DNA of 64,000 nucleotides from a bacterium (GCA_963663405.2 CAXXSM010000100.1:6351-70350), one strand, 5' to 3'; positions 15,120 through 61,720 are shown, counted from the first letter of the stretch. Program-made: numbers and translations. The notes: generated by a model not told the origin, from the letters alone.

Positions 15120-15123
15120 AAAA

Positions 15124-15312: not shown

Positions 15313-15317
15313 AAGCG

Positions 15318-15848
15318 ATGGACTTAATCCGTACCACATTTGAAACAAGCCGCCTGATGGAATTCTTTGATGAAAAAGAATTAACAAAACAAATCGGCCA
15401 CAATCGAGGAATGTGGCCGGTTGCGCTCCTAAAAGAATTAATTGACAACGCGCTGGACGCTTGTGAGAGCGCCGGAGTCAATCCGGTTATCGAAGTCTAT
15501 TTGGAGAAGAATAGTCTCTCTGTCCAGGATAACGGGCCGGGTATTCCACCGGAGACAATCGAGAAATCACTTGATTATAAAATTCGCGTATCGGATAAGA
15601 ATAAATATGTCTCACCAAGTCGAGGTCAACAAGGAAACGCCTTGAAATGTGTGTGGGCTGCTCCGTTCGTTGCTACAGGATCTGGAATTATCGAGATAGG
15701 CACTAGGGGCCAATTACATGAAATCGATGTTTCACTGGATCGATTGACGGAAGAGCCGGAGATTGGCCACACAATCACCGATGATTTTGTAAAAAATGGC
15801 ACTTTTGTAAAAATCCATTGGCCAGAGATAGCATTGCTCTCAGGATGA
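15318..15848 (+). CDS. GHKL (Bergerat-fold) ATPase domain protein, topoisomerase VI-B-like
   Basis: MEFF..(x)..LKELIDNALDA (N box), VQDNGPGIPPE (G1 box) and SPSRGQQGNALK parallel the Topo VI-B N-terminal motifs (AEFF, RELIENSLDA, DNGIGIP, RGxxGxG). Only 176 aa. Confidence 0.65.
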   Translation: MDLIRTTFETSRLMEFFDEKELTKQIGHNRGMWPVALLKELIDNALDACESAGVNPVIEVYLEKNSLSVQDNGPGIPPETIEKSLDYKIRVSDKNKYVSPSRGQQGNALKCVWAAPFVATGSGIIEIGTRGQLHEIDVSLDRLTEEPEIGHTITDDFVKNGTFVKIHWPEIALLSG

Positions 15849-15886
15849 AAGTAAAACGGTCGATCGGAAAGGAGCACAACAACATC

Positions 15887-16066
15887 ATGACTAAGATAAC
15901 GGAACAAACAATAGTGCAGGTCTATTGCCAGCGGTGTGGTCATGCGTTGGCAGGCGCGCCGATAGGATCGAGAGTCTACTGTCCTCCATGCCGTGTATGG
16001 ACATTGGCCAAAGAAACAGCGGACCAACCATTGCTCAAGGAGACGAGGTCATGCAAGGAGAAATAG
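15887..16066 (+). CDS. Small zinc-ribbon protein
   Basis: CQRCG...(x)...CPPC four-Cys pattern. Internal ATG at 15887 of ORF 15818..16066. Confidence 0.4.
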   Translation: MTKITEQTIVQVYCQRCGHALAGAPIGSRVYCPPCRVWTLAKETADQPLLKETRSCKEK

Positions 16067-16275
16067 TTTTGAGCGCTAACCAACTGCGCAGCATCATCCA
16101 CGCTGGACTATGCAATGATCGCATGTGGACCGAGGGCTGCTGTCATGAGATCGCTAAGCAGTCGCACTCCAACGGCGAGATATCGCGCGTATCGTTCGCG
16201 GATCGTGACGCAAGACATTCATTTAAAAATGGAATGAAATTTATGCGTTCTGTTTTGCGCAATGATATTAAGTGA
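16051..16275 (+). CDS. Hypothetical phage protein
   Basis: AAGGAG lies 8 nt upstream of the ATG at 16051. Confidence 0.35.
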   Translation: MQGEIVLSANQLRSIIHAGLCNDRMWTEGCCHEIAKQSHSNGEISRVSFADRDARHSFKNGMKFMRSVLRNDIK

Positions 16276-16313
16276 TATATAATATATTTAACAACAATAT
16301 AGGAGTATACATT

Positions 16314-16601
16314 ATGAGCGTAGCATTCGAGCATTCAGGAACTTCATTACATTTGATCGTTGATTTGAGCGCTGTTGAGAGTCTCAGCAACCAGGACGGC
16401 GGGACGGTCCACGTGGGCAGCATGCACGGCGAGATTAACGAGACGTTAACGAAAGAGGGCTATACGATAGATTTATCTGTCCGCCGGGCACTCACTCCGA
16501 GCGAGCGCGAGCAGTACGGCGCTGACCTCCAACTTGATGCGGCTCCAACGGCCAAGCGCGGAGGGGGAGGGCGGTCCAAATCTCCACAGCCTCAAAAATA
16601 G
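16314..16601 (+). CDS. Hypothetical phage protein
   Basis: AGGAG RBS before the ATG at 16314 (MSVAFEHSG..). Confidence 0.5.
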   Translation: MSVAFEHSGTSLHLIVDLSAVESLSNQDGGTVHVGSMHGEINETLTKEGYTIDLSVRRALTPSEREQYGADLQLDAAPTAKRGGGGRSKSPQPQK

Positions 16602-16674
16602 GAACCGTATAGCCTCGCATCGCGCACACAACCGCAATTCCGGTTAGTTTAGCAATTTGTAAAGGAATATAGCA

Positions 16675-17130
16675 ATGCCAAGACAACCAGTACCTACCAA
16701 CCTAAAGATCCTGCGCGGCAATCCAGGCAAGCGCGCAATCAACAAAAATGAACCGCAGCCGAGCGCGGACGGCGTCAAGTGTCCGTCCTGGTTATCACGC
16801 GACGCCAAGGCCGAGTGGCGGCGTGTGGCGCCGGAGTTAAAGCGGCTCGGCCTATTGACAGTCGTTGACGTGTCCGCGCTGGCAATGTATTGCGAGTCAT
16901 ATTCTCAATGGCGCGAGGCCGTCCGGATTATCGAGCGCGAGGGCCAAACGTATTCACATGACGGACTCATCCGCACTCATCCGGCGTGTCACGTGGCTAA
17001 CAATGCGGCGCGGACGGCTAACCTATTCGCCGGGCAGTTCGGAATGACGCCATCGGCGCGAACGAAATTATCTATCGAGCCGCCACAGCAACCGAGTTTG
17101 GTTGACAAATTTTTGAACCGGAGTGGGTGA
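16675..17130 (+). CDS. Phage terminase small subunit, P27 family
   Basis: ..LKILRGNPGKR.. at the N-terminus and ..FGMTPSARTKL.. at the C-terminus are characteristic of P27-family TerS. Confidence 0.8.
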   Translation: MPRQPVPTNLKILRGNPGKRAINKNEPQPSADGVKCPSWLSRDAKAEWRRVAPELKRLGLLTVVDVSALAMYCESYSQWREAVRIIEREGQTYSHDGLIRTHPACHVANNAARTANLFAGQFGMTPSARTKLSIEPPQQPSLVDKFLNRSG

Positions 17131-17398
17131 TATGGACGGCCTAATTTCACAGAGCCAAGTCGAGGACCAACTCGGTATTAATAAGCTCGCGCTGGACACG
17201 CTCCGGAACTTAGGCGTCCTCATTCCGGTTGACACCGGCGACGGTGAGCCGATGTACAGGCAAAGTGACGTCAGTCCATTTCTATTTTATCGATGCGTGT
17301 ACGTTGACGTAACGCTTGAGCGGGTCCGCGCAATTACAGCGGCGCAAACCGAGACGCCGGAAACTTACAATCCAATGCGGGGTGTAAATAATGGGTAG
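17123..17398 (+). CDS. Small HTH (excisionase/MerR-like) protein
   Basis: ..SQVEDQLGINKLALDTLRNLGVLIPV.. HTH_17-like pattern. Confidence 0.4.
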   Translation: MGDMDGLISQSQVEDQLGINKLALDTLRNLGVLIPVDTGDGEPMYRQSDVSPFLFYRCVYVDVTLERVRAITAAQTETPETYNPMRGVNNG

Positions 17399-19076
17399 AC
17401 AGACTATCGGCCAATTGGTTATTGACTTACAGGCGCAGACGTCCAAATTTCATAGCGATATGAATAAGACGTCACGTATGTGGAATAACAAATTGGATTC
17501 CATGCAGCGGACAGCCAAAAATTTTGGCACTGCCATCAAGGCGTATTTCTCATTTCAGGCGCTAAAAGGTCTATCCAATTTTGTGCAGGATAACATCGCC
17601 TGGGCGTCCTCCATGGCCAAGGTAGCCGATACCGTTGGTCTCTCGCTGGATAAATTCCAAGGCCTCTCGATGATCGTAAAGGAGCTATCCATCGAGCAAA
17701 GCACCTTCGAGCGCGCCATACAGCGAATGACGCGCCGGATCGGCGAAGCAGCCGAGGGAACCGGGACGGCAAAAGACGCATACTCCAAGTTAGGCATCCA
17801 GATTACAGATAGCGCGGGCAAGGTCCGGGATACGTTTTCCATTTTTCTCGACGTGGCGCGCCATTACAAAAAATTAAAAACAGAGGCGGATGAACTAAAC
17901 GTATCCAATCAACTATTTGGCCGTGGGTTTGAGGAGATAAATCTGCTGCTCAGGCAGGGCGCGCCTGCCATCGAAACGCAGATCAAAAAATTCGCGCGCA
18001 TGGGATTGATAATCAAAGATCCGCTCATACGCCAAGCGGAATTAGCGGACGATTCGCTCACAGAAATGAAAGACAGTGTTAGCGCGCTCGGCAAAGAATT
18101 CTCGCTTGTATTGGCTCCGGCGATTAAGACAGCGGCGGACGCCATGAGAACCAATGTAGGCGCAATGCGGCTGCTGTTCTCAAAGGCAACCTGGAATGAC
18201 TGGCTCACGGGCAATCCGCTAAAAACGGCGATCATGTACAACGTTATGTCACCGGCTGAAATGTGGGAAAAATATTACTATGGCGGCAAAGGGAAAAAAC
18301 TACTCGCCTACTCCGGGCTTCGGCTCGTCTAAAGGCGATGACGATTACATGGACGTATTTCCACCGGCGCAGGTAACGAAAACACGCGCCGATTGGATGA
18401 ATGACACTGTTCGCCGGATGAAAGACAATATGGAGTCTCTCACCAATGAAATGCAAATGCAGGTTGACGTCATTCGGGATGAGATGCGCTCGGAGCGGGA
18501 CATATACAATCAGCGATTAGAATTACTCAATCAGGCGCGCTCTATTAACATACTCAACGCCGATGAATTTAATACTATGTCCGAGCATGTAAATAACGTA
18601 TTCAACGGCATGGTAGAGGCCAGCCAGCGTTCTGCTAGATTAATAGAGAGCGGTATATCCGGCGCATTGGAATCAATTGCCAATAACGATCTTAATAATT
18701 TCGTAAATAGTTGGATACGCTCATTTGACAAAATCTTTTTTGATTTGGCCGGGCGGAATATTATCAATTTATTAGAACCAACTATGTTAGGCGCAGGGCG
18801 GGTTCCTAAACTTCGCATTCGGCGGCGTGAGAGCCGCAGGCGGGCCGGTTATGGGCGGCGCGTCCTATCTAGTCGGTGAGCGCGGGGCCGGAGTTGTTCA
18901 CACCGAATATCAGCGGACGGATAACACCGCATGAGCAGATAAAAGGCGCGGGCGATATCAACATTGACACCGGCGGCGCTCCACTATTCACCGTTACAAG
19001 CGGCCATGTAGGGCCACAGAGCGCGGCGCAGTTTAGGACAGGACTTCCTCGAATTCATCGAAGACGCGAGGCGTAA
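17391..19076 (+). pseudogene. Phage tail tape-measure-like protein, split over several frames
   Basis: TP901-type core (..KLGIQITDSAGKVRD..LFGRGFEE..). The C-terminal signature GGPVMGGASYLVGERG / PELFTPNISGRITP can be read only by switching frames around 18800-18890. Covers ORFs 17391..18332, 18280..18879 and 18876..19076. Confidence 0.7.
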
Positions 19077-19080
19077 ACGC

Positions 19081-20309
19081 ATGACTATTATACAACGCAT
19101 AAGACAATACATATGGCCGGAGCGGCGCAGCGAATATGAGAGCGCATGGTACAGCGGCGATCCATTGCCGGAGCGGTTCGGCGCGGCTGGAATTCGTGTC
19201 AACGCTGACAACGCCGTCCAACTAACGGCGGTTTTTCGCGTGTGTGAAAAATATTGAGTGAGACGGTCGCGTCACTTGCCATTGATCCTATACAAGCGCC
19301 TACCGGACGGCGGCAAAGCGCGCGCGGTGGAACATCCGCTATACAAACACGCTCCATGATAGTCCAAATCGTTGGCAGGACGTCGTTAGAATTCCGCAAG
19401 TTACTGCAGAGTCACTTATGTTTGCGCGGGAATGGCTACGCCGAGAAAATACGGCCAGGCGGACGGCTGGAATTGATACCGATCCATCCGGATACCTGCA
19501 CTCCTAAAATGAGTGACAGCGGCGTCATAACGTATGAGGTACAGACGCAGGAACAGCGGCGGACGTTACCGCAGAATAAAATACTGCACTTGCGCGGCAT
19601 TGGCAGTAACGGCCTTGTAGGTTTATCACCAATCGAGATATGCAGGGACGCAATCGGCGCTGGTATGGCAGTACAGCAGTATGGCAGCCGGTTTTTCATG
19701 AACAACGCTAGGCCATCGGGAATTATCGAGTATCCGGGCGTCATGCAGGATAAAGAGGAAATTGCAGCGTTTAAAAAGTCGTGGCAAGAGGCGCAGACGG
19801 GCGCGAATCAACATAAGACGGCCGTCCTTGAGCGCGGCATGACTTACAAGCCGATAGGTATATCCAATGAGGATAGCCAATTCCTTGAGACGCGGAAATT
19901 CAGCGTTGAGGAGATAGCGCGGATATACCGCATACCAATGCATCTTTTACAGTCATTGGACAAGTCGAGTTTTAATAATATCAGTCATCAGTCGATGGAA
20001 TTTCTAACATATACAATGATTCCTTGGTTCCGGCGGTGGGAATCAGTGTTAGCGCGCGATTTACTAACAGCCGAGGAGCGCACAGAGTATTTTTTTGAAT
20101 TCCTTGTCGATGGTTTCCTGCGCGGGGATATCCAGACACGCTATAACGCATACACCAAGGGCCGTCAATGGGGCTGGCTCTCACCTAACGACGTTCGCCG
20201 AATGGAAAACATGAATCCGATCGACGGCGGTGACGAGTATCTTACACCGCTCAATATGCAGGCAATAGGACAGCAAGATAACGGCGCTGACAATGCCGAT
20301 AAAAACTAA
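19081..20309 (+). pseudogene. HK97-family phage portal protein, N-terminal region frameshifted
   Basis: ORF 19254..20309 has portal motifs (..LRGNGYAEKI.., ..FMNNARPSGII.., ..EEIARIYRIP..). The N-terminus (MTIIQRIRQY..AVFRVCEKY) and ..LILYKRLPDGGKARAVEHPLYK.. are in other frames. Confidence 0.8.
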
Positions 20310-20331
20310 CATTTTACCGAGGTAAAAAAAA

Positions 20332-21667
20332 ATGAATGAATTACAGAAATTGCAAGCAAGACAGCGTGAAATTGCGCAGCGTATCATTGACATTAATGAG
20401 GCGGCTGTTTTGGAATCACGGGATTTATCCGAGGATGAAAAAAAGGAATGGCGGGATCTCCGGGCCGAGGAAAAAAAAGAACGCTGAGCGTATCAAGAAA
20501 CTCGAAACCGAGCAGCCAGCCGATGAGCGCAGCGTAGGTATCGAGGCGCTGAGCGCGCAGACGAATGGTGAGAGCCGCCAACGGGCGGCTAACCTGGATC
20601 GCCGGAGTTATCGCGGGATGTTTTGCCGAAATGGTGAACAACTCTCCAACGATGGCTTTTCCTCATTCGAAGAATGGATGGCATGTGTCCACAGTGGCCG
20701 TCCAGACGAGCGTCTGCAGTATCGATCGATGGGCAGCGATATTCCATCTGCAGGCGGTTTTCTCGTACCGGATCAATTCGTAGCCGAAATGTTGGATACC
20801 GGCATTGAGAATGAAATTGTCCGTCCTCGCTGCACTATCTGGCCGATGGTAAGTGACACCGCGCGCGCGCCGGGCTGGGATGGCGCGGATCACTCCAGTT
20901 CGTTATATGGCGGGTTTGCCGGGACGTGGCTCGGCGAGGGCGAGACGGCCACCGAGGTTGACGCGCAGTTTCGTTCCATTGCGCTTACGGCGCACAAATT
21001 GGCAGTCTTTACATCCGCGTCAAGCGAGTTGGTACAAGACAGTTTTCTCTCGTTTGATAGCATCATGAATGACGGTCTGCGCAATGCGCTGTCATGGTTC
21101 CTCGATTATGCGGCCATCAATGGGACCGGCGCGGGCCAGCCGCTCGGATTGGTCAATAACAATTCTGTTGTGTCAGTGGCCAAAGAGTCAGGACAGGCCG
21201 CGTCAACTATCGTGTGGAACAACATCTGCAAGATGTATGCGCGTATGTGGCCAAGTGGCCATCAAAATGCCATCTGGATTGCCAACAATACTATCATTCC
21301 ACAATTGTTGGCGCTTACCATTCCGGTTGGTACCGGCGGAAGTGCAGTCGGTCCTAACATCGGCCATCCAGTAATGAAAGAGGATAGTGGTAGTTTTTCA
21401 CTACTCGGCAAGCCGATTTATTTCACAGAAAAAGCTCAATCTCTGGGCACAGCGGGCGATATTATGTATGTCGATCTCTCACAATACGTCATGGGATTGC
21501 GAAAAGAGATCATTATCGAAAAGTCCAACGCCGTCCATTGGACAAGTGACAAGCAAGCCTACCGCGCCATCATGAGGGCCGATGGTATGGGCAAGTGGAA
21601 TAGCGCCATCACACCGAAAAACGGCGATACGCTTAGTTGGTGCGTAACGCTGGCGGCAAGGTCGTAA
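20332..21667 (+). pseudogene. HK97-family major capsid protein, frameshift in an A8 run
   Basis: The ATG at 20332 gives a coiled-coil delta-domain start (MNELQKLQARQREIAQRIIDINE..RAEEKKER*). The A8 run at 20471-20478 separates it from the frame of ORF 20336..21667 (..AGGFLVPDQF.., ..SELVQDS..). Confidence 0.85.
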
Positions 21668-21673
21668 GCTAAC

Positions 21674-22099
21674 ATGAGGACTTACATTCCGCTCATAGCG
21701 TTGTTAGTCATTCTCGCGGGCGCGGCCTATGGCGCTCATTGGTCATGCACAACAACCGAGGATATATCCTGGTCCGTGCGAAAAATTACATGGTCCTGGA
21801 TATCCAACGCAACCGGCGAGGTGGACGCGCAGACAACCGCGTATTTCTCCGGCGCGCCACTCGGTTTCATTGCCGAGCCAGCGGGCGGGGTATCCGCGCC
21901 ATCGGCTGACTATGATATCTCGATCACCGATGAGAATGAATACGACTTACTGCAGTCGAGCGGGGTGGATATGTCAGCGGCGACTAGCGTCTATATTTTC
22001 GATGCGACGTTGACGCCGATATCGAACGATAGGCTTACATTGCATATCAGAGCTGCCGGGAATGCGAACAGCGGCACGGTGGTTTTGTATCTGCGATAG
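21674..22099 (+). CDS. Hypothetical protein with signal peptide, downstream of the capsid gene
   Basis: MRTYIPLIALLVILAGAAYGA.. hydrophobic leader. No family recognised. Confidence 0.5.
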   Translation: MRTYIPLIALLVILAGAAYGAHWSCTTTEDISWSVRKITWSWISNATGEVDAQTTAYFSGAPLGFIAEPAGGVSAPSADYDISITDENEYDLLQSSGVDMSAATSVYIFDATLTPISNDRLTLHIRAAGNANSGTVVLYLR

Positions 22100-22317: not shown

Positions 22318-23490
22318 CTAGCCGTTTTCCGCTTTCGCCTGTACGTCCGCAAACGATATGATTTTCGATCCATGTTTCCCCAACGCCTCACGCAGCGGGT
22401 CCTGTGCTAGATGCGCGTAGACTTCGGTTGTGCTGAGCGTGGATTGATTCAACGCCTTGCCAACGAGTATCAGCGACTCCCCGGAGGACGCCAGCCAGGA
22501 GCCTACCGTCCTGCGCAGATCATGGATTCGCAGCGTTGGCATTCCGGCGCGGTTGCGGATGCGATGCCATTGGCGCTTTGGAAATATCGCCCAGTGTTTC
22601 GATGGATCGGGGCCGGGGAATATCCATTTACAATTATCGATTCGGGGAATCATTTCGAACATGCCGAGAGCGGCAGTGCTGAGCGGCAAATAAAACGGGC
22701 GGCCTGCCTTTGTATCGTCCAACTTGAGAATCCTTTGCTCACGATCTAAGTCTTTCCATTCTCGCCGCATTAATTCACGATTCCGTAGGCCGGTTAAGAG
22801 GTACAGCCACAGTCCGGCGCGTACGACGGGATTCCACTCCTCATTAATCGCGGCGGCCAATTTAGGTAATTCGTCCGGCGTTACCCACACGTCCCGTTTT
22901 TCCTCTCGATTTTTCTTTATCCGTCTCGCCGGGCTGACGTTATCCTCTTTCAGGAAACCTTCGTTGATTGCGTATGAGTGTATGCGCGAGACGAGAGAGA
23001 CAATTCTATTGGCTTCGATGGGCGCGGTTTTCGATATACGATCATGTATTTTTTCTGATATCCGGGCGGGTGATCGAATCGGCTTTTTTCTTTCCAAGTT
23101 CGGGGCGCAGGTGTTTTTTCAATCCGGCGGCGGTCCTGAACGCCGGTTTTCAATTTCGATGCGTGGCGGGTTAAATAATCGTCAAGAATATCATTGAATG
23201 TTACCGATGGCTTGCCGCGCTTATCTGGATTGTTTACCGGCGGCAATGGTGAGATTCTTTATTCCAGCAATCTGACGCGCCTTCTCCGGCGTGATATTCG
23301 GATATTTTGCGATTGTGATCCATTTCAATTTTCCTTCCCACCGATAGCAGTAGACGAAAGACTTTTGACCGGATTTAAAAAACACGCAGACCGAAATGTG
23401 CGGTTTTCCGTATCCCAGATTATGCCAGGTGTTTTTACTGACTCGCAGAGGTGAGTTGTTATTTTTTTTTTCATAACAGTGGGCCTCCAA
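22318..23490 (-). pseudogene. P4-type tyrosine integrase (DUF4102-like N-terminus), three or more frameshifts at A runs
   Basis: N-terminus ..SFVYCYRWEGKLKWITIAKYPNITPEKARQ.. (23221..23490). Middle ..NPDKRGKPSVTFNDILDDYL.. (frame of 22950..23246). Catalytic part ..LRNRELMRREWKDLD.., ..RIHDLRRTVGSWL.., ..LSTTEVYAHL (22318..23097). Confidence 0.85.
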
Positions 23491-23640
23491 AAAAATAACA
23501 GTGGTTCTAACAGTGGGCCGTTTGAGCTAACACCAAGCTAACACATATGTCTATTTCTGTCCATATCGGAAAATGTAAAAGTAAAAATTTCCTAGGAAAA
23601 ACGGGGATTTGTATATGTCTGTCCATGTAGGGGCGATTGC

Positions 23641-23706
23641 CTTCTAAGCAGTGGGCCGCAGGTTCGAGTCCTGCCGGGCGTATACTGAAAATTCTAGACT
23701 TACGAA
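23641..23706 (+). repeat. tRNA-Arg(UCU) 3' fragment = att core, right copy
   Basis: 48 nt identical to 8755-8802. The 5 nt upstream (ATTGC) would complete the anticodon stem with GCAGT, but no acceptor 5' strand (ACGCCCG) or canonical D-arm is present. Confidence 0.85.
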
Positions 23707-23792: not shown

Positions 23793-23970
23793 ACTCTTAG
23801 ATCTTTTCCCAGTTTGAATATAATAAATCAATTCATCTCGGCAGGATCAGAAATTACCATTCAAACAAAATTCAAAAATCCCCGCCAGCTGCGCTAGCGC
23901 AGCAAAAAGACAAAAGCAAAGAGTATAAAGTGTCAAAGTGCAAAGGGTAAAAGCGATACAGCAAAAAGCG

Positions 23971-24791
23971 CTAATAAGTCCGGGAATACACAACTCGCAA
24001 ACCTATGACGTCGTCCCTGAGATCTGGGGCCCTGTCGAACCGGTACGCCGATCGGCAGTTCTCTGGATTGTAGAACCAGGAACCGCCCCGAAACACACGA
24101 GCTGCCCCACGGGGTGAATCAATCCAAGCGGAACCATCTTGAGGCGCCTCTTTGTAATTCTCATGCCAATCATCTTCACACCATTCCCGCACATTTCCGC
24201 TCATATCACAAAGCCCCCATAGATTTGGGGATTTTTCTACCTACTTGCTTCGTTTCCTCTTATCACATTATTGTCCGGATACCACGCATAATTCCATATT
24301 TCTCGATAATCATCATCCTCTCCCCAATAAAAGCGTGTCTTCGTTCCCGCCCGGCATGCGTATTCCCATTCCGCTTCGCTTGGAAGGCGAAATGTTCCTT
24401 GACCGAGTTGATTCAATTCAGTAATGAATCTTTGACAATCATCCCAGGAGACAGATTCAACTGGATGATCGGGTTTCCCTTTAAATTCAGAAGGATTCTC
24501 ACCCATCACAGCTTTCCATTGCGCCTGGGTGACGGGATATTTACCAAGATAACAATCATAATCTATTTTGACTATATGCTGTGGACTTTCATCATCATAT
24601 CGACCTTTCTCATTCTTTGGACTTCCCATCTTGAATCTACCCTTGGGTATATGAACAAATTCGATAGGAATCGATTCATTTGGCAAATTCGGTAATTGAA
24701 TGATGATGGTGTCCACGTTCATGTATTTCGAATGCGTCTCGTTTCTTAATTTGGATTTGAGGAACTTTCGTTTGCTCATTCCACGGTTCAA
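23971..24791 (-). CDS. FGE-sulfatase (SUMF1-like) domain portion of target 1 (two fragments), carries VR1
   Basis: ..FVHIPKGRFKMGSP..ESPQH..VTQAQW..VSWDDCQRF..FRLPSEAEWEYACRAG.. and ..MSGNVREWCEDDW..RGGSW..CRSA..R. Confidence 0.85.
23981..24110 (-). repeat. DGR variable repeat VR1
   Basis: Gap-free 130-nt match to the TR. All 20 mismatches (hand count) are at TR adenines (plus-strand T). Confidence 0.9.
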
Positions 24792-25489
24792 TCAAGAGTG
24801 TTTCTTCCAGCCATCTTCGTTTCTCATCTGCAACTGAACATTCCGTAAGCAGACAATCCATTAACAATTCCGATGATTGCATGTATTGGATAATATTCGA
24901 CAAATCTTCTGGAACTTGCAATGGATTCGAGAAATCAATATCAACGTGTGGATCAAACGATCGTTTTTCATTTTTTCTAAATAGGCTCTGGACAAATTCA
25001 CGTATTTCATCACTTCCCGAAGTTGCGAATAAAGCAAGCATTTTATTGACGGAATGAGGATTTGAATTGCTGGAACAAATACAACCTTCAAGATTCTGAA
25101 GAAGCCCAATCACTTCATCATTGGCAAGTTTTGAAATTCCCCGGCGCATAGAAATCAAAAATGAGTATGGATCGCTTAGTTTCTTCCGTTATCAATAAAA
25201 AAAACTTCACGCCATCGCTGTTCCCGCATATGCCGTTCAATAATGGAATCAAGATTCTGGGGATGTTCAACAATCCACAACGCGGTTAAATACTCATGGA
25301 AAGTGAGATGAGAGAAGGAATAGATATGCCTAGCGCGTTCAACCAACAAACCATGATGGCTTTCAATGGAACAAAGCAAAGTTCGACTATCAGTCAGTGC
25401 AATTCCTTTTTCAAATTGAAAAGTTTGTTGAAGGTAATGGGAAATATTATTTTCCAGAGATCTCCGTTTCATAAAAATAGTGTTCTTCA

Positions 25490-27049
25490 TTAAAAACTTT
25501 GATACGCCAATTCTGTCAATAATGAAATTTTAATCTCTTCTGTGAACGACTCTACAACATCAGGCCGTACGATCCCTCTTGTTAAATCCCATTCACGTAT
25601 TAACAAATCGAATGTTTCTCGATATAAATCAGCGCGGCTGGATGGAAACCGTTCTTTTTCAGAATTAGAAAAGACCCAACATAATAATGTTAGAAGCAAT
25701 GGATTTGTAGCTAACTCTAGAAGAGATCGATTCCTATTAATTTCATCATAACACTTTTGTGCTTTTTGGGGATTCTTTTTAAACCAGTTTTGTATAAATG
25801 TTCTGATCTGATCTTCATTAAAGTCCGCCACTTCAACTAAAGTAAATTTTTCAAAGGTTCTGTTATAAGCGGCAAGACGACAGCTAATGATAAAACGGTT
25901 TTTGTTATATCGTTTTGTAAACAAACGAATGGTCTGCACGGCTTCAGCTATTGTACTAAATGAAACCTCATCCAAACCATCCATAATAACTACACAATTC
26001 CCTTTTCTTAGATGCTGGCTGGTAAACTGCATTGCATCTTTAACATCTGCATCTTCAAATTGTTTGGAAATAAATTCAAGTATTGTGTTTTTGCTATCAG
26101 ACCATTCTTTTAAACTTATGAATATGGGTATCTTTTGTTTGTGAAGTTTTCCTTTAAGTATCTCAATGGTTATATATTTAAAAAAAGTAGTTTTCCCCGC
26201 TCCCGGTTTTCCTAATACCATCAAATGGTCATCGTTATCTTTTAATATTTCTATCCCTTCTACGGATTTATTTGAAGACGGATATTGACGCTGCTCGTTT
26301 GATCGAAACTGTTTCTCTAGTTCACTTAACTCAACGGATTGCTCTTTTGTGATCTTCTCAAGAATATGAACTTTAACATATATCGAATCCAAGGATATAT
26401 CTTTATCCATTCCTAAAATCTGAATCGAACTATTGTTCTCATAAATCTTATTTTTATAGGTTTTTAAGTCATGCTCAAAAACTTGCGTTTCTAAAACTGG
26501 TTCGTGAGTAAAAAAAATCTTTGAATCGATATTCGATGTATATAGTTTTATCTCTCCAAGAGGTGGTATTTCTATTTGATGAGTCATAAAACGATATAAA
26601 GTAATGTACTCTCTTTGAATAGATACATTAAAATATCCATAAATCTGCATGAATTCTGGAATATATAAATCCCATTCCGCATGAAAGACAATCGGAATGT
26701 ATTTTTCATTTAATGATTTCTGTTTATATAATTTATAATTAATATTTTGTAATTCTCTAAAACTTCCACGTTTATCAGATTTAGAATATTGTTCTGAACA
26801 TACTATTAATACAAAATCCGCTTTTTCGATTTGTTCAGACATCCAATCGAGCCATCCTTTAGGTGGGAACGGCTCATATTGGTCTATCCAACAATCTAAA
26901 CCATCATATCGAAGTTGATTCGCAAATGACAAAACAAGTTCACTATGCTCATTTGTTTCATGGCAATAGCTGATAAATACTCTTATTTTTTTGGGATAAT
27001 TTTCCATTTTTTTGTTCCAAGACATTTTCCTAGAAATTCTCTTATTCAA
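25490..27049 (-). CDS. TIR-superfamily (SEFIR-like) + NACHT P-loop NTPase fragment of target 1
   Basis: The N-terminus IRVFISYCHETNEHSELVLSFANQLRYDGLDCWIDQ..ADFVLIVCSEQY is TIR/SEFIR-like. Walker A is VLGKPGAGKTTF; Walker B is VVIMDGLDEV. Confidence 0.85.
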   Translation of the reverse strand: MNKRISRKMSWNKKMENYPKKIRVFISYCHETNEHSELVLSFANQLRYDGLDCWIDQYEPFPPKGWLDWMSEQIEKADFVLIVCSEQYSKSDKRGSFRELQNINYKLYKQKSLNEKYIPIVFHAEWDLYIPEFMQIYGYFNVSIQREYITLYRFMTHQIEIPPLGEIKLYTSNIDSKIFFTHEPVLETQVFEHDLKTYKNKIYENNSSIQILGMDKDISLDSIYVKVHILEKITKEQSVELSELEKQFRSNEQRQYPSSNKSVEGIEILKDNDDHLMVLGKPGAGKTTFFKYITIEILKGKLHKQKIPIFISLKEWSDSKNTILEFISKQFEDADVKDAMQFTSQHLRKGNCVVIMDGLDEVSFSTIAEAVQTIRLFTKRYNKNRFIISCRLAAYNRTFEKFTLVEVADFNEDQIRTFIQNWFKKNPQKAQKCYDEINRNRSLLELATNPLLLTLLCWVFSNSEKERFPSSRADLYRETFDLLIREWDLTRGIVRPDVVESFTEEIKISLLTELAYQSF

Positions 27050-27268
27050 GTTTCATCACAAAATAGAGGGCCGCCTAAGCAGGACGTTCGGCCAACACCT
27101 ACCAGCCCCGCCCAGGCCTTTCAATCTTTGTCCGGCAGCCTCGAACGGCCCTCATTGTTCGAACGGCTGCGCGATGCGGGAATATACCTATGGACTCCTC
27201 TTAGTACGCTCAAGGCATCCGTAAATGACTTGACTCTGACCGTGAGAATACCATTCTCACAAGGAGCG

Positions 27269-27398
27269 CGGGAATACACAACTCGCAAACCTATGTTGTT
27301 GTTCCTGTTATCTGGGGTCCTGTTGTTCCGGTTCGCCGATCGGCAGTTTTCTGGATTGTTGTTCCAGGAACCGCCCCGAATCACACGAGCTGCTCTTT
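27269..27398 (-). repeat. DGR template repeat (TR)
   Basis: Translates (non-functionally) to [40 protein letters not shown], with about ten AAC codons. It overlaps the 3' end of the RT ORF. ORF 27121..27384 in the track is this repeat, not a gene. Confidence 0.9.
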
Positions 27399-28463
27399 CC
27401 TGATATATCCCCTTTCTTTACAATTTTTGCGTTTTCGAATAAAGACGTACGTAATCCCCATGAATCGGCATGTGAGACATGACCGATCCAACTGACAACC
27501 GATTGCGTCACATCAAACAATGCGATTTGCTTCTCACGATATTGAACGCGCAATTTCTTGAATCTTTTCAAAAACCGGTGGCCATTGCCATTCCGCACTA
27601 ATACATGACTGGGAAAAACACGATAACCCAGAAAATCAATCCCATCTCTAACCGGAACAACATGCGCGCAGTTTTCATGAATGGATAAATGGTTCTGATT
27701 CAACAAATAGTCAGAGATTTCGTTTTTGATTTCATACAATCGTTGTTTTGAATGATGCAGGACAAGCATATCATCCACATAGCGCAGGTAGGCTTTCACT
27801 CCCAAGGTCTCTTTCACAAAATGATCGAATGGATTCAGATAGACGTTAGCAAAAAATTGGCTGGTTAAATTACCGATTGGAATCCCCAAAGGCCCGTCAA
27901 AATTCAATAGATAATTCCCACGATCGTCAATCGGGTGAGGCTCACGGTAGCTGCGCAGTATATGACGTATTAACCATAAGATGGATTGATCGCCGATTTT
28001 CCGGGAGAGAATTGAGAATAATAAATCCTGTCGAATACTCTGGAAATACTTTCGTATATCTATTTTGATGGAGTACGGATAGTGTTGGATCAACGTTTTC
28101 AATCGATTCACCGCCGCATGAGTCCCTTTACCTTTACGGCATGCGTAGGAATCAGAGATAAACGATCGCTCGAAAATCGGTTCGATGATATTGCAAAAGG
28201 GCATGATGAACGATACGATCACGATAGGGAGCGGCGCTGATGGTTCTTTTCTTCCCTTCATTAATGACAAATTCCCGATACCCTCCATGTTGATACGTCT
28301 TTGTCTCTAATTCACGCTGTAACCGTAAGATCTCTCGCTCAAAATTGAGGTTAAATAGACTCACTTCAAAGCGGAATCGCTTCCCCTTTTGCGCTTTTTT
28401 GGACGCCAGCAATAAATTTTGAAAATCCCTTAGTTGGGGATAAAGGTTTTTATAACGTTTCAT
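27308..28463 (-). pseudogene. DGR-type reverse transcriptase, one frameshift near 28190-28200
   Basis: N-terminal ORF 28152..28463 (..[17 protein letters not shown]). It continues in ORF 27308..28288 ([26 protein letters not shown].., IGNLTSQFFANVYL, YLRYVDDMLVL). The junction lies at GCCCTTTTGC. Confidence 0.85.
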
Positions 28464-28804
28464 GCTTTCGCCTGCTGCTTGATCCAGCCTCCCAACATAG
28501 ATCCCACTTCATCTAAAATTTCAGAGATATACTTGTATCGGCGGAGATCAACAAATTTAAGATCTTTAGCCAATCTCGCCAAGAAACGGAATTTCTCCAA
28601 ATCTAAATTCGCGCGTTTCAGTAGAGCAATTTTCGAGCGTGAATACGAAGCTTCCACCAAAAGATCCAAGATCTCCAACAATACATTTTCCATACGGGAG
28701 CCAATCGTATATCGCTTATTTTTGGGGAATTTTTCAATCAAAGGCATCATCCAAAGAATGATGTCATACATTTTCTGCACGATAGCGGGGTGATTGCTTT
28801 TCAC
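28460..28804 (-). CDS. avd: Avd (accessory variability determinant), four-helix-bundle protein
   Basis: ..[33 protein letters not shown].. is typical of the four-helix-bundle (Avd / 23S-IVS protein) family. GGAGGA lies 5 nt upstream of the GTG at 28804. The 3' end overlaps the RT start. Confidence 0.8.
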
Positions 28805-28920
28805 GTGAATCCTCCAATTTAAAAAATATTCGCGAGCTGCGCTAACGCGCAGCAAAAAGACAAAAGCAAAAAGTATAAAGAGTCAAAGTGCAAAGGGTAA
28901 AAGCGATACAGCAAAAAGCG

Positions 28921-30157
28921 CTAATAAGTCCGGGAATACACAACTCGCAAACCTAAGTAGTTGACCCAGCTAACTGGGGACCTGAAGAACCGGAACGCCG
29001 ATCGGCAGCAGTCTGGATTGTAGTACCAGGAACCGCCCCGAATCACACGAGCGCCTCTACGGGGTGAATCAATCCAAGCGGAACCATCTTGAGGCGCCCC
29101 TTCAAAATTCTCATGCCAATCATCCTCACACCATTCCAGCACATTCCCGCTCATATCATAAAGCCCCCATGAATTCGGTTTCTTTTTCCCCACAGGATGT
29201 GTTTTTTGAGAAGAATTTCCAGTAAACCATGCAAACTGATTTATTTCTTTGATACTCAGGATCATCTCCCCAATAGAACCGCGTGCTTGTACCTGCCCGG
29301 CAAGCGTATTCCCATTCCGCTTCGCTTGGAAGACGGAACGTTCCTTGACCGAGATCATTCAATTTTTTGATGAAATTTTGACAGTCATCCCATGATACGC
29401 ATTCGACTGGGCGATTTGTGTTTCCCTTAAAATTAGCAGGATTCTTACCTAAAACCGCTCTCCATTGTTTTTGAGTTATTGGATATTTCCCTAAATAGAT
29501 ATCATGAGGAATAGTCACTTGATGCTGCGGACTTTCATATTCAGATCTATCTTTTTCTTTTTCCGGACTTCCCATCATGAAGGAACCTGCAGGAATTTTG
29601 CACAATAATAGAGGAACAGATTTACCTGTTGAACTGGGGATTTTAAATTCGATCTCGGAAGATTCATCTATAACTGGTTCGATTGATTTTAAAGGCGGTT
29701 CTACTATTGATGTAGTTGTATCCCTTTCAGGAGGTCCTTCTTCATCCGGCTTGTTTGGTTTGGAAGGTGTTCCGATTAATGATTGAATGGACTTGATAAG
29801 GTTATCAAAGTCTGTATTAGGTGTCCCCTTTTTCCAGCCGGTAAGATCAACCGTTTTAAGATCTCTGAATCCAAAAGGAGGACGTACTTTTTCAATGAAT
29901 ATTGGCCTTAAAATATTTTTATTTAGACCTTCTCTTGCCTCTTCTTTTACCCACTTGGATTTAATAGACGATTCTGACCAAAGCACGATAACACAATGGG
30001 TATTGTCAAGTTCAGCGTCGATAAAATCATAGATATTTTCTGCTATCGGGACTTCTCGATCCCAAAAAACAGACCACCCCCGCGATTGCAATTCTTCAGC
30101 GATAACCTTCGCAATTGCAATATCGTCACTTTTATAGCTAATAAAAATATCACTCAT
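28921..30157 (-). pseudogene. DGR target 2: TIR domain fused to FGE-sulfatase (C-type lectin fold) domain, one frameshift near 29260
   Basis: The N-terminus MSDIFISYKSDDIAIAKVIAEELQSRGWSVFWD..VIVLWSESSIKSKWVKEEA is a TIR. This is followed by a PSKPNKPDEEGPP linker, then ..CKIPAGSFMMGSP..ESPQH..RLPSEAEWEYACRAG.. . The C-terminal fragment ORF 28921..29358 carries VR2. Deleting one base in GAGTATCAAAGAA restores ..DDPEYKEINQFAWF. Confidence 0.85.
28931..29060 (-). repeat. DGR variable repeat VR2
   Basis: Gap-free 130-nt match to the TR. 22 of 23 mismatches (hand count) are at TR adenines. Confidence 0.9.
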
Positions 30158-30701: not shown

Positions 30702-33075
30702 ATGATCGTATCCAGGCGATATGCGCTTTGGGGCAATCTCTTTCGAATAACCTGTTGTCTTCTTGTCTGGTGTTCCAATGCTGTGGCTTTGTTTGAAACC
30801 GATATGCCGTATGCGGAGCGTGTAACGGATGGACGATTTCCGTTCGTAGGTACGTTTATGGTTTCCAAATGTCGCCAATCTTGGCACCGGCGTTGTAATC
30901 TCTCCCCGGCACATTTTGACATGCGCTCATCTGGCGCCATTCGACGAGGGAATCATTAAAGATTCCTTGTGGTATGAAGAACACGGGGGATCTGCCGACA
31001 ATGCGCGTGATGGGCGTATTAATTTCTATGGAACCGCTTCGACAGGAGACCATCCCAACTATACGACAACGCAGTTCTGGGTGCATCCGGATTACAATCC
31101 GGATTTAGGAAATTTGGCAGGATGGGATTTAATGATCATGGTGACAGCGGAACCGATCGACGATGTCGAGCCGGTTCCAATCATGCCGCGCTTAAACAGC
31201 GATCATTTACGCCGTGGATCGTGGGTTCGTCATGTTGGATTCGGTCCGACGGAAGGAGGCGCCGCGCATCAGTACAAAAGCACGTTACTCACACGCACAC
31301 TCAGCGTAGGTTTGAGTTCGCCGACTCTATATACATGGGGAGATGCGGGAGGCGGCGACTCAGGCAGCCCGGTTTTTCAACGCCGTATGGACGATCATGG
31401 ACAAATGAGAGAAGTATTAGTCGGTGTATTAACCAATGAGGGAATTCGTTCGATTTGGATCGATCCAAACGTATACAGTTGGATACGAAGTATTGTTGAT
31501 CGAATGGATCCAACGCTTCTGCCTGAGGATTACGACGGAGATGGAATTGAGAATATTTTTGATTCCTGTTTGTTGAAAGCGAGCAGCGAATCTGATTCCG
31601 ACAGGGATGAAGATGGGGTCGGCGCTTCGTGCGACACGTGCAGTGATTACAACGGTGGACAGTTCGACTCGGATGATGATGGAAGGGCAAATGGGTGCGA
31701 TCCTTGTCCGATTCCGAGTAGTTTCTTCCGGTTTGATCGATTGAATATTCCCAGTCTTCGCGGGTATTGGACGCAAAGTCCTTTCATGTTGGAATTTTTG
31801 GGTGTTGAAAGTGACGGACGCTGGTTGGATGAAGAATTTACTGTGGCTATCGATCCTGGAAGTGGTGGGGGATTTTATTCTGGACTCAGTCCTACTTTAA
31901 CGTTAGATGATGGCCGATACTCTCTTCGAGCGTCGGCTTTTGATGGATGCGGGAATCTAAGTGAGACACACACGATCGATTTCGGTGTGGATAGCGAACC
32001 TCCTACATTATCGTTTAATCATCCCGAAGAGGGCGCCATGATTCCTCGCGAATCAAATATGACTGTAGAGATCTTCGTTGGAGATATGAGCAGCGGTATC
32101 GGTTCCGTTGAATTATGGTTAGACGCGCCCGGAATGGGAGATGAGTTCAATCCAGGTATCAAGTTATGCGATTTTCCCGGCCCTTGGTTGATCGGATATG
32201 GGAATGTCGATCGTTGCACAGTAAATATGGATTTTCCCTTTGGGACGCATACTCTTTACGCGATCGCAAAAGATGTGGCTGGGAATGAGACGATCGCCCA
32301 AAGAGAAATAATGGTATGGTTATCACAACCGGGAGTTATACTTCCAACTCTTCCACCACTCAATACACCGGAACCGCTTGAATCAGAGCCGACGCCTACT
32401 CCGACCGCAACAAATACATCCATACCCAAAACAAATACTCCGGCGCCTGTGCAGAAAGCAACATTGACTCCAACACCCAAAATATCAGAAGAGTCGATCG
32501 TCTATTCGTTTGATCAAGCGACATTGGAGAAAAATGGCTGGAGTGAAATCCCCGGTGGCTTTATGAAATACGATTCCGGAGATGTGATTGTATCAAAATT
32601 ACCGGCGAATTCGATCCCTTCTTCCGAGGATAATTTGGGATTGGCGATGACTGTTATGGGGGATGAAGTTGCGCTTGTTTATTCAGTCAAGCCATTCGAT
32701 TCGGATGGAAAACCGGTTTTATTACGCTTAAGCGTGCGCGCGACCGGGCCTGACGCGACATTAACCTTGGCTTGTTTGAAAGGAGGAATTCAAACGCAAA
32801 CCGATGGATCGGTCGCCACTCATTCGCCTGCAACCGCGCAGAGTTTCGTTAAAAATGAACGTACGATCGTCCTCATTTATCAACCCGATGACGAGGAACC
32901 AATCAATCCCATAATTCAAGTGGCGGGAATCGGCGCTAAAACGAAAACAACAGTATATATTGATCGATTGGAAGCGTATGTCATTGAAAAAAGTGGTTCG
33001 TATTTGGGTGAATTATTCTATTCCGATCCATTATTCCACAAGCAAATCCCCGGAATTCCTAGCATCAGAGAATAA
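30702..33075 (+). pseudogene. Secreted trypsin-like (S1) serine protease with TSP3-like Ca-binding repeats and Pro/Thr linker; frameshift near 30865
   Basis: The signal-peptide ORF 30702..30959 reads on in the next frame as ..NVANLGTGVVISPRHILTCAHL.. (His), ..WDLMIMV.. (Asp), ..GDSGSPVF.. (Ser). DxDxDG repeats occur at DYDGDGIENIFDSC...DRDEDGVGASCDTC. The linker is EPTPTPTATNT. Confidence 0.75.
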
Positions 33076-50183: not shown

Positions 50184-50188
50184 GGTTC

Positions 50189-61714: not shown

Positions 61715-61720
61715 AGAAAA

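What the first reader, a model, noticed from the sequence alone, without database searches (positions are those of the whole stretch)
23881..30157. DGR cassette with one TR serving an upstream and a downstream target, and TR placed 3' of the RT
The order on the minus strand is as follows. First comes the TIR-FGS target ending in VR2 (30157 to 28921), then a conserved flank with hairpin, then avd (28804 to 28460). Next is the RT (28463 to about 27400), with the TR overlapping the RT ORF 3' end (27398 to 27269). A structured spacer of about 200 nt follows, and then a roughly 3.1-kb second target (27049 to 23971) ending in VR1. In the Bordetella phage BPP-1 paradigm the order is target-avd-TR-RT. 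Here the TR follows the RT and sits directly upstream of the second target. The two FGS domains are also about 90% identical at the DNA level just upstream of the VRs, so the target module was duplicated recently.
Basis: partly seen in the sequence, partly recalled or inferred. Interest (0 to 1): 0.8.

Follow-up and report, generated by a model that had tools for sequence, protein, structure and literature searches.

The report
Ordinary two-target DGR cassette, frame-broken
This is a real diversity-generating retroelement that rewrites the tips of two immune-sensor-like genes, but its gene order is the usual one for its family, and the sequence as deposited carries about a dozen single-base frame breaks that are probably assembly errors.

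Summary
The DGR is real. TR (27393-27269, minus strand) matches VR1 (24105-23981) and VR2 (29055-28931), and all 35 mismatches within the homologous cores fall on TR adenines. Avd passes NCBI's DGR-Avd model. The RT's best solved relative is a 328-aa RT (8ub7, E 1e-52), against 8e-18 for group II intron RTs.

The layout is not unusual. avd-RT-TR is architecture B2 of Wu et al. 2018. Among 80 genomic loci of this RT clade, 45 have the TR after the RT, and 14 have VRs on both sides, as here.

The roughly 200 nt after the TR are a conserved, covarying RNA. It follows the TR in relatives whether the TR lies before or after the RT, like the Spacer RNA of the Bordetella phage DGR.

- Neither target nor the RT is one ORF. 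I count at least 12 one-base frame breaks, 11 of them +1 insertions, including three in the adjacent integrase. All are colinear with intact homologs.
- The RT-TR overlap probably comes from one such insertion.
- The target duplication is old, not recent.

A related contig shows the same clustered one-base insertions in housekeeping genes, so assembly error is the likelier cause (about 60:40 against real decay). Verdict: a new member of a known kind, of low interest.

The parts
28921..30157 (-). Target 1: TIR domain plus FGE-sulfatase/C-type-lectin (FGS) domain, 411 aa when reconstructed. It is split into two ORFs (30157-29156 and 29358-28921) by a +1 insertion in an A run near 29250.
   Evidence: Pfam TIR_2 (3.7e-21) and FGE-sulfatase on both pieces. 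The frame break is located. The intact 410-aa counterpart lies on L085.
28931..29055 (-). VR2, at the 3' end of target 1.
   Evidence: 19 mismatches to the TR within the 122-nt core, all at TR adenines.
28818..28930 (-). Conserved 3' flank of VR2, ending in the hairpin GCTGCGC-GTTA-GCGCAGC (28853-28836) followed by a T-rich stretch.
   Evidence: 93% identical to the flank after VR1. Sequence read.
28460..28804 (-). avd accessory gene. It starts at a GTG after a GGAGG ribosome-binding site, and its stop overlaps the RT start codon (ATGA).
   Evidence: NCBIfam DivGenRetAVD equivalog, 116 bits against a cut-off of 80. Pfam bAvd 1.5e-21. Sequence.
27418..28463 (-). DGR reverse transcriptase, 347 aa when reconstructed. 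The raw ORFs are 28463-28152 and 28288-27308. There is a +1 insertion in the T run near 28197, and probably another in the A run at 27428-27424 that removes the stop codon.
   Evidence: HHALCN is invariant in 35 homologs and is split here. The IGNLTSQ and YVDD motifs are present. Best solved structure is 8ub7, E 1.2e-52 over the full length.
27269..27393 (-). Template repeat (TR), the only one in the window.
27064..27268 (-). Spacer-like structured RNA after the TR. It consists of a variable hairpin (GTGAGAAT-GGT-ATTCTCAC) followed by a 140-nt conserved core (27203-27064).
   Evidence: Conserved in 6 relatives whose RTs are only 61-63% identical. The covariance model finds it just after the TR in 13 further loci. 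92% of cells are paired, against 32-45% with slid partners, and 31 of 35 pairs show compensatory change. No Rfam family matches.
23971..27025 (-). Target 2: TIR/SEFIR, NACHT, NCH2 helical domain and FGS domain, 1017 aa when reconstructed. It is split into five ORFs by six one-base frame breaks.
   Evidence: Pfam. Junctions located. The reconstruction is colinear over 99% of its length with the intact 985-aa homolog P0128.
23981..24105 (-). VR1, at the 3' end of target 2.
   Evidence: 16 mismatches to the TR, all at TR adenines.
23866..23980 (-). Conserved 3' flank of VR1, with the hairpin GCTGCGC-TA-GCGCAGC (23903-23888) and a T-rich stretch. The loop is 2 nt shorter than in the other three copies.
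   Evidence: A terminator-like site is reported.

Best explanation
This is a cellular diversity-generating retroelement with the common core order avd-RT-TR-Spacer. It has one diversifiable target upstream and one downstream.

Proposed mechanism:
- avd, RT, TR and spacer are probably transcribed together. avd and RT overlap by ATGA, and no terminator-like site lies between them.
- The spacer RNA just 3' of the TR folds, binds RT-Avd, and primes cDNA synthesis at the 3' end of the TR.
- The RT misreads TR adenines. The cDNA then replaces VR1 or VR2, guided by TR-VR homology and by the shared flank and hairpin after each VR.
- The result is a varying ligand-binding face on two C-type-lectin/FGS domains. 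One sits on a TIR-NACHT (NLR-like) protein and the other on a TIR-only protein. These are putative hypervariable antigen sensors of a conflict system.

Because TR and spacer form a self-contained RNA module, their position before or after the RT gene has no special mechanistic consequence.

What is shown: the adenine-specific TR/VR pattern, the domain content, the conserved covarying spacer RNA, and how common the layout is. What is inferred: co-transcription, cis-priming, the role of the hairpin, and the sensor function.

The dozen frame breaks are more likely consensus errors of a long-read metagenome assembly than real decay (about 60:40).
For: DGR identity:
- 35 of 35 TR/VR mismatches fall on TR adenines, and the TR holds 10 AAC codons in the target frame.
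- Avd passes the curated DGR-Avd model.
- The RT carries the [LIV]GxxxSQ motif (IGNLTSQ). It matches the 328-aa RT of 8ub7 at 1e-52, against 8e-18 for group II RTs. It fails the group II, retron and Drt cut-offs.

Layout:
- It is architecture B2 in Wu 2018.
- 45 of 53 clade loci with a detectable TR have it after the RT, and 14 have VRs on both sides.

Spacer:
- Covariation is strong.
- The model hits always lie about 50-70 nt after the TR. This includes loci L005 and L077, where the TR precedes the RT.
- Handa et al. report Avd-binding stem-loops and stop duplexes just downstream of the TR in 207 of 278 Avd-type DGRs.

Targets:
- Pfam finds TIR, NACHT, NCH2 and FGE-sulfatase.
- There is an intact 985-aa homolog with the same architecture.
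- Dore et al. 2024 describe two-target STAND-CLec DGRs, some with TIR.

Ongoing diversification: the two VRs of the related contig L085 also differ from this TR almost only at adenines (18 of 18 and 17 of 21).

Frame breaks as artefacts:
- 11 of 12 are +1 insertions.
- Contig L092 (96.9% identical to window 50133-64000) has 27 one-base insertions relative to the window. Eighteen fall within 1.5 kb, and they break the PMT_2, RseP and ProRS genes that are intact in the window.
Against: - As deposited, the RT and both targets cannot be translated full length, so activity is not shown.
- The breaks cluster in accessory DNA: about 12 in 7.8 kb of integrase plus DGR. None was detected where checked in 33-64 kb, where ORFs are long and the FGGY kinase, ProRS and RseP are full length. 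That distribution also fits real decay of a mobile island.
- A/T-run density differs only about 1.3-fold between the regions.
- I could not establish the sequencing technology of the window's contig.
- The single-sequence fold of the spacer is not exceptional (z = -1.06).
- The proposed duplex between the TR flank and the spacer beat a random-window control in only 4 of 16 loci.
- No reference tree was used to place the RT in Roux/Dore clade 5.
Confidence: 0.87

Rival explanations
1. The cassette is a recently dead DGR. The roughly 12 frame breaks are real mutations that accumulated in a decaying mobile island, alongside a broken integrase and a prophage remnant. The adenine-only VR pattern would then be a fossil of past activity.
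For: - The breaks are confined to accessory DNA: three in the integrase, one or two in the RT, one in target 1 and six in target 2. Housekeeping genes in the same window are intact.
- The neighbouring phage genes look truncated. The portal match starts at profile position 49, and only a tail tape-measure fragment is present.
- The VR1 hairpin loop has lost 2 nt relative to the other three copies.
Against: - 11 of 12 indels are +1 insertions. From established knowledge, natural bacterial pseudogene decay is biased towards deletions.
- The same clustered one-base-insertion signature breaks housekeeping genes in a related contig.
- There is not a single non-adenine substitution in the 247 aligned TR/VR positions.
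- Every domain remains colinear with intact homologs.
Confidence: 0.4
2. The gene order (TR after the RT, feeding one upstream and one downstream target) is a new DGR architecture with its own mechanistic consequences.
For: It differs from the Bordetella phage order of target-avd-TR-RT.
Against: - avd-RT-TR is already class B2, and two-target cassettes make up 13% of DGRs.
- 45 of 80 clade loci have the TR after the RT, and 14 have the same two-sided arrangement.
- The spacer RNA travels with the TR in both orders.
Confidence: 0.03
3. The RT belongs to a non-DGR lineage (group II intron, retron or defence RT), and the repeats are unrelated to it.
For: There are weak sub-threshold matches to the group II RT/maturase (143 bits, cut-off 300), Drt3a and retron St85 models. 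Some databases name homologs 'retron-type' or 'group II'.
Against: - All those matches are far below their curated cut-offs.
- The best solved relative by 35 orders of magnitude is the 8ub7 RT.
- The DGR-specific IGNLTSQ motif is present.
- A curated Avd gene is translationally coupled to the RT.
- The repeat mismatches are adenine-specific.
Confidence: 0.01

Closest known systems
DGR architecture B2 (avd-RT-TR) of Wu et al. 2018, NAR 46:11 (PMC5758913)
   Same: The core order is avd, RT, TR on one strand, with Avd as the only accessory gene. There are two targets with C-terminal VRs in C-type-lectin folds, and a GC hairpin lies downstream of each VR.
   Different: Nothing in the architecture differs. 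I could not read their supplementary table, so I could not check whether the exact sub-variant target-avd-RT-TR-target is listed. My own survey found 14 such loci.
Bordetella phage BPP-1 DGR (mtd-avd-TR-Sp-brt)
   Same: It shares adenine-specific TR-to-VR transfer, Avd, an RT homologous over its full length (8ub7, E 1e-52; I take this entry to be bRT from memory, not verified here), a structured non-coding spacer immediately 3' of the TR, and a hairpin after the VR.
   Different: - Here the TR-spacer module lies after the RT gene rather than before it.
- There are two targets instead of one.
- The targets are cytoplasmic-type TIR/NACHT proteins, not a phage tail fibre.
- The hairpin sits about 75-90 nt after the VR rather than directly after IMH.
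- The spacer has no detectable sequence similarity to BPP-1 Sp (not compared directly).
Clade 5 cellular DGRs that diversify STAND-NTPase/CLec putative antigen sensors (Dore et al. 2024, PNAS, PMC10907252; e.g. Thiohalocapsa PB-PSB1 DGR 3 and clade 5D)
   Same: There are two targets, each with a single C-terminal CLec/FGS domain. One has a central NACHT, and both have N-terminal TIR effector domains. A trypsin-like peptidase gene lies next door (30916-33075). RT relatives come from cyanobacteria, Thiotrichaceae, Chloroflexota and similar groups.
   Different: - Target 1 has no NTPase.
- By its ProRS, the host looks related to Omnitrophota/Hinthialibacterota MAGs (68-73% identity). These are not known multicellular bacteria.
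- Placement of the RT in clade 5D was not tested with a reference tree.
DGR RNA elements around the TR (Handa et al. 2018, NAR, PMC6182149; Handa et al. bioRxiv 10.1101/2023.10.23.563531)
   Same: A stem-loop lies directly after the TR, followed by conserved helices. A short duplex between the 3' edge of the TR and the spacer is possible (GCTCCTT with GAGGAGT).
   Different: The priming nucleotide and Avd contacts are not known for this spacer. The 140-nt core found here has no Rfam family.

Membership tests
Diversity-generating retroelement (DGR) | A TR/VR repeat pair whose differences fall almost only at TR adenines | tested here: met
   16 of 16 (VR1) and 19 of 19 (VR2) mismatches fall at TR adenines. 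No other copies exist in the window.
Diversity-generating retroelement (DGR) | An RT of the DGR lineage ([LIV]GxxxSQ in motif 4, YxDD) | tested here: met
   IGNLTSQ and YVDD are present, and HHALCN and other columns are invariant with 35 homologs. 8ub7 RT scores E 1.2e-52 against 8e-18 for group II. The RT is below the cut-offs of the group II, retron and Drt models. No reference phylogeny was made.
Diversity-generating retroelement (DGR) | VR at the C-terminus of a target protein with a C-type-lectin/FGE-type fold | tested here: met
   Pfam FGE-sulfatase matches the C-terminal pieces of both targets, reaching profile position 254 of 255.
Diversity-generating retroelement (DGR) | An accessory protein Avd next to the RT | tested here: met
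   NCBIfam DivGenRetAVD equivalog, 116.4 bits against a cut-off of 80. There is a 4-nt overlap with the RT start.
Diversity-generating retroelement (DGR) | Intact RT and target reading frames (a potentially active element) | tested here: not met
   As deposited, the RT has 1-2 one-base frame breaks, target 1 has 1 and target 2 has 6. Whether these are real is unresolved.
Diversity-generating retroelement (DGR) | IMH at the VR end that differs from IMH* at the TR end, followed by an inverted repeat | tested here: inconclusive
   TR and VR diverge right after ...TATTCCCG. A 7-bp GC hairpin follows each VR but lies about 75-90 nt downstream, and none follows the TR in that form. Function is not testable here.
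DGR architecture B2 (Wu et al. 2018) | Core order avd, RT, TR with no other accessory gene | tested here: met
   avd is 28804-28460, RT is 28463-27418 and TR is 27393-27269, all on the minus strand.
Clade 5D-type DGR of Dore et al. 2024 (STAND-CLec antigen sensors) | Two targets with single CLec domains and a central STAND NTPase | tested here: inconclusive
   Target 2 has NACHT plus NCH2 plus FGS. Target 1 has TIR plus FGS and no NTPase.
Clade 5D-type DGR of Dore et al. 2024 (STAND-CLec antigen sensors) | RT placed in clade 5 of Roux et al. 2021 by phylogeny | not tested
   No reference RT set was available. The taxa of the relatives (cyanobacteria, Thiotrichaceae, Chloroflexota, Nitrospirota) are merely compatible.
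BPP-1-type DGR RNA (TR plus Spacer) | A structured non-coding RNA immediately 3' of the TR, conserved with the element | tested here: met
   19 sequences, 92% paired, 31 of 35 pairs with compensatory changes, always located just after the TR. Caveat: the alignment was fitted to the model.
BPP-1-type DGR RNA (TR plus Spacer) | Cis-priming from a spacer adenosine paired next to the TR 3' end | not testable with these tools
   A 6-11 bp duplex between the TR flank and the spacer 5' end recurs, with compensatory changes in L090, L026 and L032. It exceeds a random-window control in only 4 of 16 loci.

The most novel reading that the evidence does not exclude
The DGR core (avd-RT-TR-spacer) and the C-terminal sensor module (NCH2 helical domain, FGS, VR and 3' flank) may behave as separable, movable modules.

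- In contig L085, which is about 86% identical in the shared segments, the same two target 3' modules lie directly adjacent in the order target 2 then target 1. This order is circularly permuted relative to the window.
- The breakpoint falls exactly at the T-rich stretch after the VR-flank hairpin.
- The shared sensor module sits on a divergent TIR-NACHT N-terminal half.

If this is general, the conserved VR flank and hairpin would double as a recombination junction. That would let a DGR attach its diversifiable sensor to new NLR-like effectors. Here it would do so in a host related to Omnitrophota/Hinthialibacterota, which are not known as multicellular bacteria.
Probability: 0.2. Interest if true: 0.45.

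Novelty: new member of a known kind. Interest (0 to 1): 0.22.

Why it matters
It matters little as an architecture, because the layout is the norm for this RT clade and is already classified. There are three modest points of value.

1. It is another example of a DGR that diversifies NLR-like TIR-NACHT-lectin sensors. The host appears to lie outside the multicellular lineages emphasised so far.
2. It gives comparative evidence that TR and spacer RNA move as one unit relative to the RT gene. The 140-nt conserved spacer core has no Rfam family.
3. It is a caution for genome scans. Clustered one-base insertions in long-read metagenome contigs can make an intact cassette look pseudogenised. They can also create apparent features, such as an RT ORF that runs into the TR.

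Tried and rejected
- ARAGORN found no tRNA. Rfam later gave a borderline tRNA hit at 23615-23682.
- Exact-protein look-ups of the window's own RT fragment, two neighbouring proteins and Avd returned nothing. The source record and its sequencing technology therefore stay unknown.
- A metagenome scan for the RT frame-break site, allowing 3 or 4 T's, found no other copy. The break could not be checked in an independent assembly.
- No Rfam family matches the spacer or anything else in the cassette.
- The single-sequence fold of the spacer is not significant (z = -1.06). Only the comparative evidence supports it.
- My test for a duplex between the TR flank and the spacer was weak, with 4 of 16 loci below 5% in the control. 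I keep it as an inference only.
- Avd has no PDB match by sequence.
- I could not confirm from the paper text that 8ub7 is the Bordetella bRT.
- Homopolymer density as an explanation for where the breaks cluster was rejected, because the difference is only about 1.3-fold.
- Recent duplication of the targets was rejected.
- The supplementary tables of Wu et al. are not held, so the count of B2 members and sub-variants could not be read.
- Of the eight 'TR upstream' calls in my scan, L019 and L029 have the repeat more than 3 kb away and may be VR-VR pairs.
- The 27 'no TR' loci may reflect contig ends or my thresholds.

Full report
**Observation**

The region holds a three-copy repeat on the minus strand:
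- TR at 27393-27269
- VR1 at 24105-23981
- VR2 at 29055-28931

VR1 differs from the TR at 16 positions. VR2 differs at 19 within its 122-nt core. All 35 are adenines in the TR, which has 37 adenines. Read in the target frame, the TR encodes [41 protein letters not shown], with 10 AAC codons and one AAT. No other TR, VR, RT or FGS copy exists in the 64-kb window.
- target 1 (TIR plus FGE-sulfatase/FGS)
- Avd
- RT
- TR
- a spacer of about 200 nt
- target 2 (TIR/SEFIR, NACHT, NCH2, FGS)

avd ends in ATGA, which overlaps the RT start codon.

**It is a DGR**

- Avd passes NCBI's curated DivGenRetAVD model, at 116 bits against a cut-off of 80.
- The RT carries IGNLTSQ and YVDD, and it aligns end to end with 35 homologs.
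- Its best solved relative is the 328-aa RT of entries 8ub7-8ube, at E 1.2e-52 over the full length. Group II intron RTs reach only 8e-18. From memory I take 8ub7 to be the Bordetella bRT, but I could not confirm this in the paper text.
- The RT falls far below the curated cut-offs of the group II, retron and Drt models.

Neither target nor the RT is a single ORF.
- RT: HHAL|CN, invariant in all 35 homologs, is split by one extra T in a T run near 28197.
- Target 1: one extra A near 29250.
- Target 2: six breaks. My 1017-aa reconstruction is colinear over 99% of its length with the intact 985-aa protein P0128, which has the same TIR-NACHT-NCH2-FGS architecture. Short peptides between breaks are matched too, for example REVFLLITEELSDPYSF and QVGRK.
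- Adjacent P4-type integrase (23490-22318): three more breaks.
- RT 3' end: the nearest RT homologs all end at 347 aa. If the A5 run at 27428-27424 is read as A4, this RT ends ...SLFENAKL* at the TAA at 27420-27418, 25 nt before the TR. The 'TR overlapping the RT ORF' is therefore probably a twelfth insertion.

Eleven of the twelve breaks are +1 insertions. Most duplicate a neighbouring base in a short run.

**Are the breaks real?**

*For real decay*
- The breaks sit in accessory DNA, while housekeeping genes in the window are intact. Examples are the FGGY kinase, ProRS (profile positions 1-558 of 559) and RseP.
- A/T-run density differs only about 1.3-fold between the regions.

*For artefact*
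- Natural pseudogene decay is biased towards deletions (established knowledge), whereas 11 of 12 breaks here are insertions.
- Contig L092 (ENA ERZ21869602, ctg73401l) is 96.9% identical to window 50133-64000.
  - It carries 27 one-base insertions relative to the window.
  - Eighteen of them lie within 1.5 kb.
  - They break the PMT_2, RseP and ProRS genes that are intact in the window.
  - Clustered one-base insertions are therefore a property of this kind of metagenome contig.
- There is no non-adenine substitution in the TR/VR alignments.

I put artefact at about 60% and real recent decay at about 40%. Only the reads can decide.

**The layout is ordinary**

Wu et al. 2018 define architecture B2 as avd-RT-TR, and they report that 13% of DGRs have two targets. 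I fetched 80 genomic loci of this RT clade (44-51% identity) and scanned each for repeat pairs with adenine-specific mismatches.
- The TR lies downstream of the RT in 45 loci.
- It lies upstream in 8, of which two are doubtful.
- No TR was found in 27.
- In 14 loci there are VRs both upstream of avd and downstream of the TR, exactly as here: L006, L009, L017, L027, L031, L033, L053, L057, L059, L071, L073, L074, L078, L079.
- The nearest relatives (RT 61-63% identical) also have bAvd-RT followed by the TR 19-50 nt later.

**The spacer is real and conserved**

The roughly 200 nt after the TR align strongly across six relatives whose RTs are only 61-63% identical. RNAalifold predicts 53 pairs, 13 with compensatory changes. 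A covariance model of the 140-nt core (27203-27064) finds 13 more distant copies, each about 50-70 nt after that locus's TR. These include L005 and L077, where the TR precedes the RT.

On the 19-sequence alignment:
- 92% of cells pair, against 32-45% when partners are slid.
- 31 of 35 pairs show changes on both sides.
- Caveat: the alignment was fitted to the model.

Other observations on the spacer:
- No Rfam family matches it.
- The single-sequence fold is unremarkable, at z = -1.06.
- A variable hairpin directly after the TR covaries in four of the six close relatives.
- A short duplex between the TR 3' flank (GCTCCTT) and the spacer 5' end (GAGGAGT, followed by CCA) recurs, with compensatory changes in L090, L026 and L032. 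It beats a random-window control in only 4 of 16 loci, so I treat it as an inference.

These features match what Handa et al. describe for the Bordetella Spacer RNA. They report stem-loops and stop duplexes just downstream of the TR in 207 of 278 Avd-type DGRs. TR and spacer thus form one RNA module, and its place relative to the RT gene is evolutionarily labile and mechanistically unremarkable.

**Targets and their history**

Contig L085 (ENA ERZ21862645, ctg12974l) carries intact counterparts of both targets (985 aa and 410 aa), directly adjacent in the order target 2 then target 1. At the DNA level, L085 2466-3963 matches window 25370-23866 at 87%. It continues without a gap into window 30251-28818 at 85%. 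The order is therefore circularly permuted relative to the window. The junction lies at a T-rich stretch (ATTTTTGAATTTTG) right after the VR-flank hairpin. The N-terminal TIR-NACHT halves of the two target 2 proteins are much more divergent than the C-terminal halves.

Over the 200 nt before the VR, identities are:
- 86.6% and 88.6% between counterparts in the two lineages
- 75% between paralogs within a genome

The duplication is therefore older than the split of these lineages, not recent. Only the last 100 nt before the VR (91%) and the 100-nt 3' flank (93%) stay alike between paralogs. That pattern fits constraint on the lectin core and on DGR target recognition.

The L085 VRs differ from the window's TR almost only at adenines (18 of 18 and 17 of 21), and all four VRs differ from one another. 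This is what continuing diversification from a conserved TR would give.

**Context and host**

- To one side lie a borderline tRNA hit (23615-23682), the broken integrase, and a prophage remnant with HTH, tail, portal and capsid genes at 13.7-22.1 kb.
- To the other side lies a 719-aa ORF with a trypsin-like GDSGSP motif and an Ig-like domain.
- G+C content is 38-42% in the cassette, against 45-52% in the flanks.
- ProRS is 68-73% identical to proteins of MAGs labelled Omnitrophota, Hinthialibacter or simply 'bacterium'. The host is an uncultured bacterium of that neighbourhood, and the assignment is loose.

**Mechanism (inferred by homology to the Bordetella system)**

1. One transcript covers avd, RT, TR and spacer.
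2. The spacer folds on RT-Avd and primes cDNA at the TR 3' edge.
3. TR adenines are misread.
4. The cDNA replaces VR1 or VR2, guided by homology and by the shared flank and hairpin.

The products would be hypervariable lectin domains on a TIR-NACHT protein and a TIR-only protein. These correspond to the putative antigen sensors of Dore et al. 2024.

**Verdict**

This is a genuine DGR, correctly recognised, but of a catalogued and common architecture. It is a new member of a known kind. The claims of an unusual layout, a recent duplication and an RT-TR overlap do not hold. The sequence as deposited is frame-broken, probably through assembly error.

Noticed in passing
L085:2466-5381 versus window 25370-23866 and 30251-28818: A related contig has intact versions of both targets directly adjacent, in the order target 2 then target 1. 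This order is circularly permuted relative to the window. The junction is a T-rich stretch (ATTTTTGAATTTTG) right after the VR-flank hairpin, and the TIR-NACHT N-terminal half is much more divergent than the sensor half.
   Followed up: partly
L092:585-2112 (window 50717-52226), and the whole of L092: A contig 96.9% identical to the window has 27 one-base insertions relative to it. Eighteen fall within 1.5 kb, and they split the PMT_2, RseP and ProRS genes that are intact in the window. This looks like a clustered insertion-error signature of these long-read metagenome contigs.
   Followed up: yes
window 23615-23682 (+): A borderline tRNA match (31.3 bits, gathering score 29), missed by ARAGORN, lies between the broken P4-type integrase and the end of target 2. 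It may be a damaged tRNA or an attachment-site remnant.
   Followed up: no
window 22318-23490 (-): A tyrosine integrase (Arm-DNA-bind_3 plus Phage_integrase) is split into three ORFs by three +1 insertions in A runs.
   Followed up: partly
window 13776-22099 (+): A prophage remnant is present: an HTH_36 protein, a minor-tail/tape-measure fragment, a portal whose match starts at profile position 49, and a capsid. ORFs 17391-18332 and 18280-18879 overlap in different frames.
   Followed up: partly
window 9995-10082 (-): A strong Rfam match to DUF3800-VII RNA (82 bits, gathering score 36) lies directly after ORF 9285-9992.
   Followed up: no
window 30916-33075 (+): A 719-aa ORF, divergent from target 1, has a trypsin-like GDSGSP motif and a weak Ig-like (Big_13) match. 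Peptidase genes next to DGR targets are noted by Dore et al. as candidate effectors.
   Followed up: no
window 5533-6999 (+): Three overlapping same-strand ORFs (5533-5949, 5816-6208, 6148-6999; the last is a methyltransferase) lie in a 35-37% G+C stretch. This may be another frame-broken gene.
   Followed up: no
window 23903-23888 versus 28853-28836 and the two L085 copies: The hairpin after VR1 has a 2-nt loop (GCTGCGC-TA-GCGCAGC), while the other three copies have 4-nt loops (GTTA or GCTA). VR1's copy has lost 2 nt.
   Followed up: no
L005:9885-9989 and L077:324-448: In clade members where the TR lies before the RT, the spacer-RNA model still hits just after the TR. The TR-spacer unit therefore moves as a block between the two architectures.
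   Followed up: partly
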